Of a stretch of 64,000 bases of DNA, positions 13,401 to 16,400 are shown in pieces. The stretch is from Escherichia coli (GTDB lineage: Bacteria; Pseudomonadota; Gammaproteobacteria; Enterobacterales; Enterobacteriaceae): the NCBI RefSeq assembly GCF_045037415.1, contig NZ_CP173438.1, one strand, 5' to 3'. The position numbers were made by a program. The first letter of the stretch is position 1. Every line of letters starts with the position of its first letter.

Positions 13401-16400
13401 CAGGTTGAGGATTAAAAATCCCCAAACACAGAGCATTAACAAACGACCAATATTAATCAGCATCACTTTCTCCTTGTGCTTCGCGTTGATACAGCCGATA
13501 AGCCACCTGACCCGCCACTTTTTCCCGATGTAATGACCAGTTTGCCGGAACAGTGGGCAGACCCTTTTCGACTTCGCTTTCGACATAAATCAGGGCTTCG
13601 TCAGCCAGCCAGCCGTTATCTTCCAGTAAATTTATCGTCTCTTCTAACAAGCCACGGCGGAACGGTGGATCGACAAACACGATATTATGCGGTGTGCCTT
13701 TTTGCGCCAGGAATGACATCGCGTTGCTGTTCACCACGCGTGCATTGCCTGCTTTTAGTGTCGCCAGATTCTTAATTAACTGCTGAGAAACCGCACGATC
13801 CATCTCAATCAACGTGGCCCCCGCAGCGTAGCGCGATAACGCTTCCAGCCCCAGCGCGCCGCTCCCGGCGAAGCAATCCAGACATTGGGCGTCAACAATG
13901 ACCGGAGCCAGCCAGTTAAACAACGTTTCGCGTACGCGGTCGGTGGTGGGGCGCAGACCTGGACTATCAGGAACCGGGAGTTTACGGCCTCGCCACTGCC
14001 CGCCAATAATGCGGATTTGGCCGCTGCCGGAATGATTCGGTTTTTTCATGATAAATTGCTCAATCCGCCAGATAACACATACTTGCAGGCGGTGATGTGA
14101 ATTAAGTTAAGTGATAGACTATTTCATCATTTTTTTAGCTGCTATGTACATAGCGTTAACGCTGTGCCATGAAGCAACAGCGAGGAGTGTAGTCGCAAAT
14201 GGCGAAAGAAAAAAAACGTGGCTTTTTTTCCTGGCTGGGCTTTGGTCAAAAAGAGCAGACCCCGGAAAAAGAGACAGAAGTTCAGAATGAACAACCAGTT
14301 GTAGAAGAAATCGTTCAGGAGCAAGAGCCTGTGAAGGCTTCTGAACAAGCCGTTGAAGAGCAGCCGCAGGCGCATACTGAAGCCGAGGCGGAAACTTTTG
14401 CTGCCGACGTTGTGGAAGTTACTGAACAGGTTGCTGAAAGTGAAAAAGCGCAGCCTGAAGCGGAAGTCGTTGCACAGCCGGAACCGGTCGTAGAAGAAAC
14501 GCCGGAGCCAGTGGCTATCGAACGTGAAGAACTGCCGTTGCCGGAAGACGTCAACGCCGAAGCGGTTTCGCCAGAAGAGTGGCAGGCCGAAGCGGAAACC
14601 GTAGAGATTGTCGAAGCGGCGGAAGAAGAAGCGGCTAAAGAAGAAATCACCGACGAAGAGCCGGAGGCACAGGCGCTGGCTGCCGAAGTGGCAGAAGAGG
14701 CGGTAATGGTGGTTTCTCCGGCAGAAGAAGATCAGCCGGTGGAAGAAATCGCTCAGGAGCAGGAAAAACCGACCAAAGAAGGTTTCTTCGCGCGCCTGAA
14801 ACGCAGCCTGTTAAAAACCAAAGAAAATCTCGGTTCCGGATTTATCAGCCTGTTCCGCGGTAAAAAAATCGACGATGATCTGTTTGAAGAGCTGGAAGAA
14901 CAGCTGTTGATCGCCGATGTGGGCGTGGAAACCACTCGTAAAATTATCACCAATCTGACAGAAGGCGCATCCCGCAAGCAGCTTCGTGATGCCGAGGCGC
15001 TCTATGGCCTGCTGAAAGAAGAGATGGGCGAGATTCTGGCGAAAGTCGATGAGCCGCTGAATGTTGAAGGTAAAACGCCGTTCGTGATCCTGATGGTGGG
15101 CGTCAACGGTGTGGGTAAAACCACGACGATTGGTAAGCTGGCGCGTCAGTTTGAGCAGCAGGGTAAATCGGTGATGCTGGCGGCAGGCGATACTTTCCGT
15201 GCGGCAGCGGTTGAACAGCTTCAGGTCTGGGGTCTGCGCAACAATATTCCGGTGATTGCCCAGCATACCGGTGCGGATTCCGCTTCTGTTATCTTCGATG
15301 CCATTCAGGCCGCTAAAGCGCGTAACATCGACGTCCTGATTGCCGATACCGCCGGACGCCTGCAAAACAAATCGCACCTGATGGAAGAGTTGAAGAAAAT
15401 CGTCCGCGTGATGAAGAAACTCGACGTTGAAGCTCCGCATGAAGTTATGCTGACCATCGATGCCAGCACCGGGCAGAATGCGGTAAGCCAGGCCAAACTG
15501 TTCCACGAAGCCGTTGGCTTAACCGGCATCACGCTAACGAAACTGGACGGCACGGCGAAAGGCGGGGTAATTTTCTCGGTGGCTGACCAGTTTGGTATCC
15601 CTATCCGCTACATTGGTGTCGGCGAACGTATTGAGGATTTGCGTCCGTTTAAGGCGGACGACTTTATAGAGGCACTTTTTGCCCGAGAGGATTAACAATG
15701 ATTCGCTTTGAACATGTCAGCAAGGCTTATCTCGGTGGGAGACAGGCGCTGCAGGGCGTTACGTTCCATATGCAGCCGGGTGAGATGGCGTTTCTGACCG
15801 GTCATTCCGGCGCAGGGAAAAGTACCCTCCTGAAGCTGATCTGTGGGATTGAGCGGCCCAGCGCCGGGAAAATCTGGTTTAGCGGCCATGACATCACGCG
15901 TCTGAAAAACCGTGAAGTTCCGTTTCTGCGCCGCCAGATTGGCATGATTTTCCAGGATCACCATCTACTGATGGACCGTACTGTCTATGATAACGTGGCG
16001 ATCCCGCTGATTATCGCCGGTGCCAGCGGTGATGACATTCGTCGCCGGGTGTCGGCGGCGCTGGATAAAGTCGGGCTACTGGACAAAGCGAAGAACTTCC
16101 CTATTCAGCTTTCCGGCGGTGAACAACAGCGTGTTGGCATTGCCCGCGCGGTGGTGAACAAGCCCGCGGTACTGCTGGCGGACGAACCGACTGGTAACCT
16201 GGACGACGCGCTGTCGGAAGGCATTTTACGTCTGTTTGAAGAGTTTAACCGCGTTGGAGTAACCGTATTGATGGCAACGCACGACATCAACCTGATTTCG
16301 CGACGTTCCTATCGCATGCTCACCCTGAGCGATGGTCACTTGCATGGAGGCGTGGGCCATGAATAAGCGCGATGCAATCAATCACATTCGGCAGTTTGGC

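What the first reader, a model, noticed from the sequence alone, without database searches (positions are those of the whole stretch)
14250..14800. Highly acidic low-complexity N-terminal domain of FtsY
About 180 residues rich in E/A/V/P with repeated EEx and AEV motifs form the FtsY A-domain. On the opposite strand this repetitiveness creates a serine/alanine-rich antisense ORF (14315-14650) that should not be called as a gene.
Basis: seen in the sequence. Interest (0 to 1): 0.15.

Follow-up and report, generated by a model that had tools for sequence, protein, structure and literature searches.

The report
Acidic disordered tail of FtsY
This is the well-known, glutamate-rich, floppy N-terminal "A domain" of the E. 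coli protein-targeting receptor FtsY, and the serine/alanine-rich reading frame on the opposite strand is only its mirror image, not a gene: an ordinary, already explained feature.

Summary
The window is E. coli chromosome. The finding lies in ftsY (14199-15695, +, 498 aa), within rsmD<>ftsY-ftsE-ftsX-rpoH. Residues 18-194 (14250-14780) have 31% Glu, 67% E+A+V+P and net charge -48 (P=2e-18 against the NG domain). This is the acidic core of the experimentally characterised FtsY A domain.

Two details of the description are imprecise:
- "EEx/AEV repeats" are no more frequent than composition predicts, so this is compositional bias, not repetition.
- The A domain also includes a conserved basic lipid-binding N-terminus (res 1-17) and the invariant helix at the A/N junction.

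Across 80 Enterobacterales species the A region is 152-272 aa (50 distinct lengths). The NG domain stays 304 aa, and charge density is held at -0.28±0.025 per residue.

The antisense ORF 14315-14650 exists. Its S/A/T content is a codon-by-codon mirror of E/A/V. Its length is at chance level (P≈0.13). It has no ATG, no Shine-Dalgarno and no family match. It is absent from a 15-billion-protein collection, is interrupted in E. albertii, and loses its start in a natural E. coli deletion allele. It should not be called.

Verdict: correct, already known, low interest.

The parts
14199..15695 (+). ftsY coding sequence (498 aa plus stop), the SRP receptor
   Evidence: ORF. TIGR00064 scores 383.8 bits against cutoff 260.7. 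RefSeq annotates the identical DNA as ftsY. The exact protein is found on >=1000 public contigs.
14199..14249 (+). Residues 1-17, MAKEKKRGFFSWLGFGQ: basic amphipathic N-terminal lipid-binding motif (alpha-A1) of the A domain
   Evidence: Mean identity 0.95 with no gaps across 80 Enterobacterales. Invariant within Escherichia. The lipid-binding role comes from PMC5094494 and PMC5533587.
14250..14768 (+). Residues 18-190: acidic, compositionally biased, disordered core of the A domain (the feature flagged)
   Evidence: Composition and net charge -47/-48. The charge-hydropathy plot predicts disorder. AF2 pLDDT is 32-42 over most of it, in an overall weak model. No Pfam or NCBIfam model covers residues 1-130, and none above its cutoff covers 1-210. 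NMR shows disorder in the K-12 protein (PMC5094494).
14385..14444 (+). Residues 63-82, E-x-E-x-F-A-x-[ED]-V-V-E-V-T-E-Q-V-x-E-S-E: gap-free conserved island inside the acidic core; partner unknown
   Evidence: F67 in 74/80 species, A68 77/80, V72 74/80, V74 73/80, E76 73/80. Gap fraction is 0. AF2 draws a low-confidence helix at 61-83.
14520..14591 (+). Residues 108-131, E-x-E-E-L-P-L-P-E-E-V...P-E-E-W-Q-A-E: second, moderately conserved island
   Evidence: E116 in 75/80 species, P113 66/80, E131 72/80, W128 47/80.
14646..14684 (+). Residues 150-162, [LI]-[TS]-D-E-E-L-E-A-Q-A-L-A-A: conserved island coinciding with the transient helix and the SecY-contact segment. The window allele has Pro155 instead of Leu
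   Evidence: E154 in 76/80 species, A157 75/80, L160 71/80; position 155 is L in 65/80 and P only in the window. NMR transient helix at 152-161 (PMC5094494). The SecY cross-link maps to residues 143-176 (PMC4602035).
14754..14822 (+). Residues 186-208, QEQEKPTKEGFFARLKRSLLKTK: invariant end of the A domain plus the amphipathic membrane-targeting helix (alpha-N1). Window Phe197 corresponds to K-12 Phe196
   Evidence: Q188, P191, K193, E194, G195, F196 and F197 are invariant in 80/80 species. Crystallised NG+1-type constructs start at 195-197. The role comes from PMC5533587 and PMC2064314.
14829..15680 (+). N domain (residues 211-276) and G (GTPase) domain (residues 294-494)
   Evidence: Pfam SRP54_N 4.1e-15 and SRP54 2.3e-79. 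Length is fixed at 304 aa from the GFF motif in 78 of 80 species.
14315..14650 (-). Antisense ORF, 111 aa, Ser/Ala/Thr-rich: mirror-image artefact, not a gene
   Evidence: see the full report.
14613..14645 (+). The only tandem repeat: 15 bp x 2.2 (GAAGCGGCGAAAGAA, encoding EAAEEEAAKEE)
   Evidence: score 52.

Best explanation
The flagged stretch is the acidic core of the A domain of E. coli FtsY, the bacterial SRP receptor. It is an intrinsically disordered polyanionic linker (about 0.28 negative charges per residue). It sits between two positively charged amphipathic lipid-binding helices: residues 1-17, and the helix at the A/N junction.

Mechanism, taken from experiments on the K-12 protein:
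- The basic N-terminus makes a dynamic first contact with anionic lipids.
- The acidic core is repelled by the membrane, which keeps free FtsY auto-inhibited.
- The acidic core is attracted electrostatically to the basic cytoplasmic C4/C5 loops of SecY.
- This tethers FtsY to the translocon while the NG domain searches for ribosome-bound SRP.

Because function depends mostly on charge and flexibility, selection holds composition and charge density but tolerates substitutions and in-frame indels. The domain therefore varies in length between and within species.

The antisense ORF is a mechanical consequence of the sense codons (GAA/GAG -> TCN Ser, GCN -> GCN Ala, GTN -> ACN Thr) and is not expressed as a protein.

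Shown here: identity, composition, evolutionary pattern, and the artefactual nature of the antisense ORF. Taken from the literature: disorder by NMR, and lipid and SecY binding. Inferred: that the same mechanism holds for this allele, which is 97% identical to K-12 in the A region.
For: Identity.

Composition and charge.

Predicted disorder:
- Charge-hydropathy: mean hydropathy 0.408 against a boundary of 0.515.
- AF2 pLDDT is 32-42 over most of residues 8-193.

Evolution:
- The A region is 152-272 aa in 80 species (50 distinct lengths), while NG is 304 aa in 78 of 80.
- 263 alignment columns absent from E. coli fall in A, against 6 in NG.
- Net charge per residue is -0.282 with sd 0.025.
- dN/dS is 0.13-0.50 in the acidic part against 0.007-0.06 in NG.
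- Within E. coli there are in-frame alleles of -1, -3 and -32 codons.

Literature: PMC5094494 (NMR disorder; salt-sensitive SecYEG binding, Kd 0.18 uM), PMC2064314 (A domain stabilises the SecY interaction; NG+1 is less active), PMC5533587 (acidic A domain inhibits the stable membrane mode; alpha-A1 relieves it), PMC4602035 (SecY cross-link to residues 143-176).

Antisense ORF.
Against: Nothing contradicts the identification.

Limits:
- The AF2 model is weak overall (mean pLDDT 54.6, with NG only 57-85), so its low A-domain confidence is weak evidence.
- Mechanistic steps were not testable here and rest on papers about the K-12 allele.
- The window allele carries Pro155 inside the only helix-prone, SecY-contacting segment, so quantitative behaviour could differ.
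- The conserved islands at 63-82 and 108-131 are not explained by a purely non-specific electrostatic model.
Confidence: 0.93

Rival explanations
1. The Ser/Ala-rich antisense ORF 14315-14650 (-) is a real embedded overlapping gene of the kind proposed for several E. coli loci.
For: - It is a 111-codon ORF inside a 138-codon stop-free run.
- Across 80 species, antisense stops in the A region are mildly fewer than a synonymous-codon permutation predicts: 135 against 160.5.
- Antisense overlapping genes have been claimed elsewhere in E. coli (PMC9927249, PMC7103648, listed).
Against: - Length is at chance: 13% of codon-order shuffles reach 138 codons, and NG-domain codons do so 14.5% of the time.
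- In the window itself there are 4 stops against 2.46 expected, so no depletion.
- The mild depletion is equally present in the other off-register frame (294 against 338), so it is not frame-specific.
- There is no ATG anywhere in the open run. The only starts are GTG 14650 and TTG 14554, with anti-SD duplex energies of -1.7 and -1.9 kcal/mol against -9.3 for ftsY.
- No promoter-like site was found on the minus strand.
- No Pfam or NCBIfam match.
- The exact sequence is absent from about 15 billion predicted proteins, although the host allele is on >=1000 contigs.
- It is not annotated in any RefSeq record inspected.
- E. albertii has stops at sense residues 57 and 73 in this frame.
- A natural E. 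coli allele deletes 14563-14658, including the GTG.
- ftsY is absent from the supplements of the E. coli antisense overlapping-gene survey.
Confidence: 0.02
2. The acidic region is a true tandem-repeat array built and maintained by slippage, so 'repetitiveness' is its defining property.
For: - One 15-bp x 2.2 repeat at 14613-14645.
- All indels are in frame.
- The 96-bp deletion of strain VTB96775v lies between short direct repeats, GCCGAAG and GACGAAG.
- Other Escherichia species carry extra xEPEV-like units.
Against: - Repeated 3-, 4- and 5-mers and the named motifs occur at the frequency that composition alone predicts.
- TRF finds no array across the region even at minimum score 30.

Slippage at micro-repeats probably generates the indels, but the sequence is not organised as repeats.
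Confidence: 0.08
3. The acidic core is a functionless, neutrally drifting spacer.
For: - NG+1 (the A domain deleted apart from one Phe) supports growth (Eitan and Bibi 2004, as cited in PMC2064314).
- The A domain is called non-essential and is absent from many bacterial FtsY (PMC4602035, PMC2780400).
- A natural 32-codon deletion exists in an E. coli isolate.
- Mean identity is 0.46 for residues 18-180 across 80 species.
Against: - dN/dS is below 1 in every comparison, at 0.13-0.50.
- Charge density is tightly held at -0.282 +/- 0.025 across a 1.8-fold length range.
- Gap-free conserved islands lie at 63-82, 108-131 and 150-162.
- Biochemistry shows that SecY binding and targeting efficiency depend on the domain (PMC2064314, PMC5094494, PMC5533587).
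Confidence: 0.05

Closest known systems
E. coli K-12 FtsY A domain (residues 1-196/197; PDB sequences 2yhs and 5gad; NMR construct FtsY-A207)
   Same: Same gene and locus. The A regions are 97% identical at the protein level. The architecture is the same: basic N-terminus, acidic core, GFFARLKRSLLK helix. The window allele is itself common, with 881 of 5425 complete E. coli genomes >=99% identical over the A region.
   Different: - 498 aa instead of 497 (one extra Gln at 158).
- Substitutions A41E, L155P, T157A, A163V, P173S and E178D in the A region.
- Two nonsynonymous differences in NG.
- Pro155 lies in the helix-prone, SecY-contacting segment.
FtsY A domains of other Enterobacterales (Salmonella, Klebsiella, Enterobacter, Kluyvera, Pantoea and others)
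   Same: Same three-part layout, same charge density and the same conserved islands.
   Different: Length ranges from 152 aa (Kosakonia) to 272 aa (Kluyvera intermedia). The sequence between the islands is essentially unalignable.
Eukaryotic SR-alpha charged linker between the SRX and NG domains (own knowledge, not tested here)
   Same: A disordered, charged segment N-terminal to a homologous NG GTPase, helping to couple the receptor to the membrane, translocon and ribosome.
   Different: There is no sequence relationship. SR-alpha is anchored through SR-beta rather than through amphipathic lipid-binding helices.
Proposed antisense overlapping genes of E. coli O157:H7 (pop, asa, ano; PMC7103648, PMC6294744, PMC5960689)
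   Same: An ORF of more than 100 codons fully embedded antisense in an annotated gene.
   Different: Those candidates have reported RNA-seq and Ribo-seq signal and phenotypes. This ORF has no start-site signals, no conservation and chance-level length, and it is not in the survey's supplements.

Membership tests
FtsY / SRP receptor (TIGR00064) | Whole-protein score above the curated equivalog cutoff | tested here: met
   383.8 bits against cutoff 260.7, over residues 223-494.
FtsY / SRP receptor (TIGR00064) | SRP54-type N helical bundle followed by the SRP54-type GTPase domain, with the P-loop GxxGxGKTT, DTAGR and TKLD motifs | tested here: met
   PF02881 over 211-276 and PF00448 over 294-494. 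GVNGVGKTT, DTAGR and TKLDG can be read in the translation.
FtsY / SRP receptor (TIGR00064) | Orthologous locus (ftsY-ftsE-ftsX, divergent rsmD) | tested here: met
   RefSeq annotation of 100% identical DNA. Found in 5425 of 5426 complete E. coli genomes, always chromosomal.
Proteobacterial-type FtsY A domain | Positively charged amphipathic lipid-binding motif at the extreme N-terminus | tested here: met
   MAKEKKRGFFSWLGFGQ has net charge +3 and 0.95 identity across 80 species. Lipid binding itself was not tested here (PMC5094494, PMC5533587).
Proteobacterial-type FtsY A domain | Highly acidic central region | tested here: met
   Net charge -47 over residues 1-196, with 28% Glu. P = 1.8e-18 against NG.
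Proteobacterial-type FtsY A domain | Amphipathic membrane-targeting helix with the critical Phe at the A/N junction | tested here: met
   KEGFFARLKRSLL is invariant or nearly invariant in 80 species.
Proteobacterial-type FtsY A domain | Intrinsic disorder of the core | tested here: inconclusive
   The charge-hydropathy plot predicts disorder. AF2 pLDDT is below 50, but the model is weak overall. The decisive evidence is published NMR on the K-12 protein (PMC5094494).
Proteobacterial-type FtsY A domain | Electrostatic binding to the SecY C4/C5 loops | not testable with these tools
   Literature only (PMC5094494, PMC4602035, PMC2064314).
Tandem-repeat / repeat-containing domain | Internal repeats beyond what composition gives | tested here: not met
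   TRF finds only 15 bp x 2.2. k-mer and motif counts are at shuffle expectation.
Antisense embedded overlapping gene | ORF length exceeding the chance expectation for that frame | tested here: not met
   P = 0.13 with codon-order shuffles and 0.145 with NG codons.
Antisense embedded overlapping gene | Start codon with a ribosome-binding site, and a promoter | tested here: not met
   No ATG. The GTG and TTG starts have anti-SD duplex energies of -1.7 and -1.9 kcal/mol. No minus-strand promoter-like site was found, though this was only a consensus scan.
Antisense embedded overlapping gene | Open frame and start conserved in relatives | tested here: not met
   E. albertii has stops at sense residues 57 and 73. 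The VTB96775v deletion removes the GTG.
Antisense embedded overlapping gene | Evidence of transcription and translation | not testable with these tools
   No expression data are available here. ftsY is not mentioned in the supplements of the E. coli antisense overlapping-gene survey.

The most novel reading that the evidence does not exclude
The acidic core is not uniformly 'non-specific'. The gap-free conserved island at residues 63-82 (ExF-A-x-[ED]-VVEVTEQV-x-ESE; 14385-14444) is conserved almost as well as the SecY-contacting segment at 150-162. It may be a short recognition element that folds on binding an as yet unidentified partner, such as SecY, the ribosome, or the FtsY NG domain in auto-inhibition. 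Relatedly, the common E. coli allele in this window carries a helix-breaking Pro155 inside the 150-162 element, which might tune translocon affinity.
Probability: 0.3. Interest if true: 0.3.

Novelty: already known. Interest (0 to 1): 0.07.

Why it matters
It matters little for discovery. The FtsY A domain has been studied since the 1990s, and its disorder, lipid contacts and SecY contacts are published.

The practical value is for annotation. A compositionally biased coding region produces a long, odd-looking antisense ORF that should not be called. dN/dS-type tests cannot rescue it, because in this frame the third codon positions of both strands coincide.

The locus is also a clean textbook example of a disordered linker whose charge density is conserved while its length and sequence drift.

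Tried and rejected
- Tandem-repeat search and k-mer/motif shuffles were run to substantiate 'repeats'. Only compositional bias was found.
- An Rfam scan of 13800-15800 at E<=1 gave only a sub-threshold archaeal snoRNA match in the G domain (19.8 bits against a gathering score of 40), which is chance.
- The promoter/terminator consensus scan found nothing on the minus strand apart from a 5-bp-stem terminator-like site at 14664-14650. The count is at shuffle expectation (2 found against 1.8).
- AF2 with a 38-sequence alignment gave a poor model (mean pLDDT 54.6). I therefore did not run fold searches, and I use it only as weak support.
- I considered dS depression as a test for antisense coding. 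I rejected it because in this antisense frame the third codon positions coincide, so sense-synonymous changes are mostly antisense-synonymous. dS in the acidic part was in any case not lower overall than in NG.
- The stop-depletion test across 80 species showed a large deficit against codon-order shuffles (135 against 237). Most of it disappears when the amino-acid sequence is held fixed (135 against 160.5). The residue is shared by both off-register frames and is absent in the window itself, so it is not evidence for a gene.
- Literature searches for prior description of the central conserved islands found nothing specific. Weiche 2008, Braig 2009 and Kuhn 2011 are not in the searchable library.
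Full report
**What the window is.** The 1.6 kb around the finding is 100% identical to the chromosome of many E. 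coli strains. It is present once in 5425 of 5426 complete E. coli genomes. RefSeq annotation of the identical DNA gives zntA, yhhN, yhhM, yhhL, rsmD (divergent), then ftsY, ftsE, ftsX and rpoH.

In the window, ftsY is 14199..15695 (+) and encodes 498 aa. The protein:
- scores 383.8 bits on the TIGR00064 FtsY equivalog model (cutoff 260.7);
- carries SRP54_N (residues 211-276) and the SRP54 GTPase domain (residues 294-494);
- matches the full-length E. coli FtsY sequences deposited with PDB entries 5gad and 2yhs over residues 1-498.

Most crystallised constructs begin at residues 195-225. The exact 498-aa protein is in the public collection on at least 1000 contigs.

**Checking the observation.** Coordinates 14250-14800 are residues 18-201.
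- Composition is E 29%, A 16%, V 13%, Q 9%, P 9%, with net charge -48.
- Glu is 54 of 177 residues in the acidic part, against 7.9% in the NG domain (P = 1.8e-18).
- Thirty-residue windows have 2.55-3.2 bits of entropy and -7 to -11 net charge here. The NG domain has 3.25-3.83 bits and roughly neutral charge.
- The sense strand is 65% purine here against 54% in NG.

So the acidic bias is real, at the stated place, and far beyond chance.

The wording 'repeated EEx and AEV motifs' does not hold.
- EE occurs 12 times against 16.2 expected from composition.
- AEV occurs only twice.
- Repeated 3-, 4- and 5-mers match shuffles.
- TRF finds only a 15-bp x 2.2 unit at 14613-14645.

This is compositional bias, not repetition.

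**Anatomy of the A domain.** The domain begins at residue 1, not 18. An alignment of 80 FtsY genes from Enterobacterales (fetched; analysed) shows three layers:
1. Residues 1-17 (MAKEKKRGFFSWLGFGQ) are basic, with 0.95 mean identity.
2. Residues 18-180 form an acidic core with 0.46 mean identity.
3. Residues 186-208 (QEQEKPTKEGFFARLKRSLLKTK) are essentially invariant and lead into the NG domain (0.96 identity).

The core is not uniform. It contains gap-free conserved islands:
- residues 63-82 (F67 in 74/80 species, A68 77/80, V72 74/80, V74 73/80);
- residues 108-131;
- residues 150-162, [LI]-[TS]-DEELEAQALAA.

The last island coincides with the only helix-prone segment seen by NMR (152-161; PMC5094494). 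It lies inside the peptide that cross-links to SecY (143-176; PMC4602035).

- Across the 80 species the A region, measured up to the GFF motif, is 152 to 272 aa, with 50 different lengths.
- The NG part is 304 aa in 78 of the 80. One of the two exceptions, L032, is only a truncated locus.
- 263 alignment columns absent from E. coli fall in A, against 6 in NG.
- Net charge per residue of the acidic part is -0.282 with sd 0.025. Charge density is therefore conserved while length and sequence drift.
- Within Escherichia, dN/dS is 0.13-0.50 in the acidic part against 0.007-0.06 in NG. The region is relaxed but still under constraint.

Within E. coli itself the A region is length-polymorphic.
- Forty evenly spaced hits gave spans of 592 bp (25), 589 bp (12, including K-12), 583 bp (2) and one partial match. 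The NG part was 905 bp in every listed row.
- The partial match is strain VTB96775v. Its intact annotated ftsY is 466 aa and lacks 32 codons, window 14563-14658.
- The deletion joins the short direct repeats GCCGAAG and GACGAAG. That is a slippage-type event.

**How it works.** The mechanism rests on published experiments with the K-12 protein, which is 97% identical in the A region.
- NMR shows that the A domain is disordered and highly dynamic.
- The acidic centre binds SecYEG in nanodiscs in a salt-sensitive, non-specific way with Kd 0.18 uM. It tethers FtsY while the NG domain searches for SRP (PMC5094494).
- The A domain is needed for carbonate-resistant association with SecY. NG+1 is functional but less active (PMC2064314).
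- Single-molecule work shows that the acidic domain inhibits the stable membrane-binding mode, and that the N-terminal motif relieves this (PMC5533587).
- The domain is non-essential and is absent from many bacterial FtsY (PMC4602035, PMC2780400).

My own tests are consistent with this. The charge-hydropathy plot places residues 18-194 well on the disordered side and residues 195-498 on the folded side. AF2 gives pLDDT 32-42 over most of the A region. That model is weak overall, so I give it little weight.

**The antisense ORF.** The ORF 14315..14650 (-) exists exactly as described: 111 aa with a GTG start. Its composition is S 33%, A 18%, T 14%, G 9%, C 8%.

Each antisense codon is the reverse complement of sense position 3 of one codon plus positions 1-2 of the next. 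This gives E->S (34 codons), A->A (20), V->T (15), P->G (10) and Q->C (8).

Stops in this frame can arise only from NNT-CAN or NNY-TAY junctions. The A region has no Tyr, and only five T-CA junctions.

The claim that repetitiveness creates the ORF is only half right.
- The composition is a mirror of the acidic bias.
- The 138-codon stop-free run, however, is reached by 13% of codon-order shuffles. Random NG-domain codons reach it 14.5% of the time.
- The codon-aligned antisense frame of ftsY is even more open. It has 3 stops in the whole gene, stop-free runs of 235 and 204 codons, and a listed 231-aa ORF at 14811-15506.

Evidence against coding:
- There is no ATG in the open run.
- The two possible starts have no Shine-Dalgarno (-1.7 and -1.9 kcal/mol against -9.3 for ftsY).
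- No minus-strand promoter-like site was found.
- There is no family match.
- The exact sequence is absent from about 15 billion predicted proteins.
- It is never annotated in the RefSeq records seen.
- E. albertii interrupts it at sense residues 57 and 73.
- The natural 96-bp deletion removes its start.
- ftsY does not appear in the supplements of the E. coli antisense overlapping-gene survey.

**A residual signal I checked.** Over 80 species, antisense stops in the A region are fewer than a codon-order shuffle predicts, 135 against 237. Holding the amino-acid sequence fixed and permuting synonymous codons leaves 135 against 160.5. The other off-register frame shows the same mild deficit, 294 against 338, and the NG domain shows none. 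The window itself has 4 stops against 2.46 expected. The effect is not frame-specific. It is weak and confounded by relatedness, and it is not evidence for a gene.

**Comparison and verdict.** This is the FtsY A domain of E. coli, a known feature of a known gene. It is a common natural allele (498 aa). Relative to K-12 it has one extra Gln and six substitutions in the A region, including L155P. Novelty: already known. Interest: low. The only mildly new observations are the conserved islands within the 'low-complexity' core, especially residues 63-82, and the Pro155 polymorphism. I could not find either discussed in the searchable literature.

Noticed in passing
window 14661-14663 (FtsY residue 155): The window allele has Pro155 (CCG). 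K-12, ten other Escherichia sequences and 65 of 80 Enterobacterales species have Leu; no other sequence has Pro. The site lies in the conserved DEELEAQAL segment, which is the NMR transient helix and part of the SecY cross-linked peptide. The allele is common: 881 complete E. coli genomes are >=99% identical over the A region.
   Followed up: partly
window 14385-14444 and 14520-14591 (FtsY residues 63-82 and 108-131): Gap-free conserved islands lie inside the otherwise unalignable acidic core across 80 Enterobacterales (for example F67 in 74/80, A68 in 77/80, V72 in 74/80). AF2 draws a low-confidence helix at 61-83. I found no description in the searchable literature.
   Followed up: partly
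L085:1501-2901 (E. coli VTB96775v); corresponds to window 14563-14658: A natural in-frame 96-bp (32-codon) deletion in the A domain of an otherwise intact, annotated ftsY (466 aa). It is bounded by the short direct repeats GCCGAAG and GACGAAG. Other E. coli alleles differ by -1 codon (K-12) and -3 codons (MS14385, H9). I could not verify whether the 96-bp deletion is an assembly error.
   Followed up: partly
window 14811-15506 (-) and the codon-aligned antisense frame over 14199-15695: The antisense frame in register with the ftsY codons has only 3 stops in the whole gene, with stop-free runs of 235 and 204 codons. It yields a 231-aa ORF in the NG domain, longer than the flagged one. Its exact sequence is also absent from the protein collection. 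This is the usual effect of TTA, CTA and TCA being rare sense codons.
   Followed up: yes
L002-L081, A-domain part of ftsY: Relative to a synonymous-codon permutation that keeps the protein sequence, A domains of 80 species show about 15% fewer antisense stops in both off-register frames (135 against 160.5, and 294 against 338). NG domains show none (ratios 0.99 and 1.01). The cause is unknown; it could be codon-context bias in purine-rich runs, or relatedness of the sequences.
   Followed up: partly
L045 (CACSKA010000004.1, labelled Chryseobacterium sp. 18061): A contig labelled Chryseobacterium (Bacteroidota) carries a typical enterobacterial ftsY, 69% identical to E. coli with a 251-aa A region. 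It closely resembles L055, 'Citrobacter sp. 18056', from the same project. This is probably a mislabelled or contaminated assembly.
   Followed up: no
L026 (Phytobacter massiliensis JC163), start of ftsY: The reading frame upstream of the conserved WLGFGQK motif reads ...VANGRREETWLFSWLGFGQK and lacks the usual MAK(E/Q)KKRGFF start; tblastn matched only from residue 9. This may be a frameshift or sequencing error, or an altered N-terminal lipid-binding motif.
   Followed up: no
window 13194-13586 (-) and 16332-17417 (+): The mechanical ORF list extends yhhL to 130 aa and ftsX to 361 aa, while RefSeq annotates 89 aa and 352 aa on identical DNA. This only reflects upstream in-frame start codons.
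   Followed up: no
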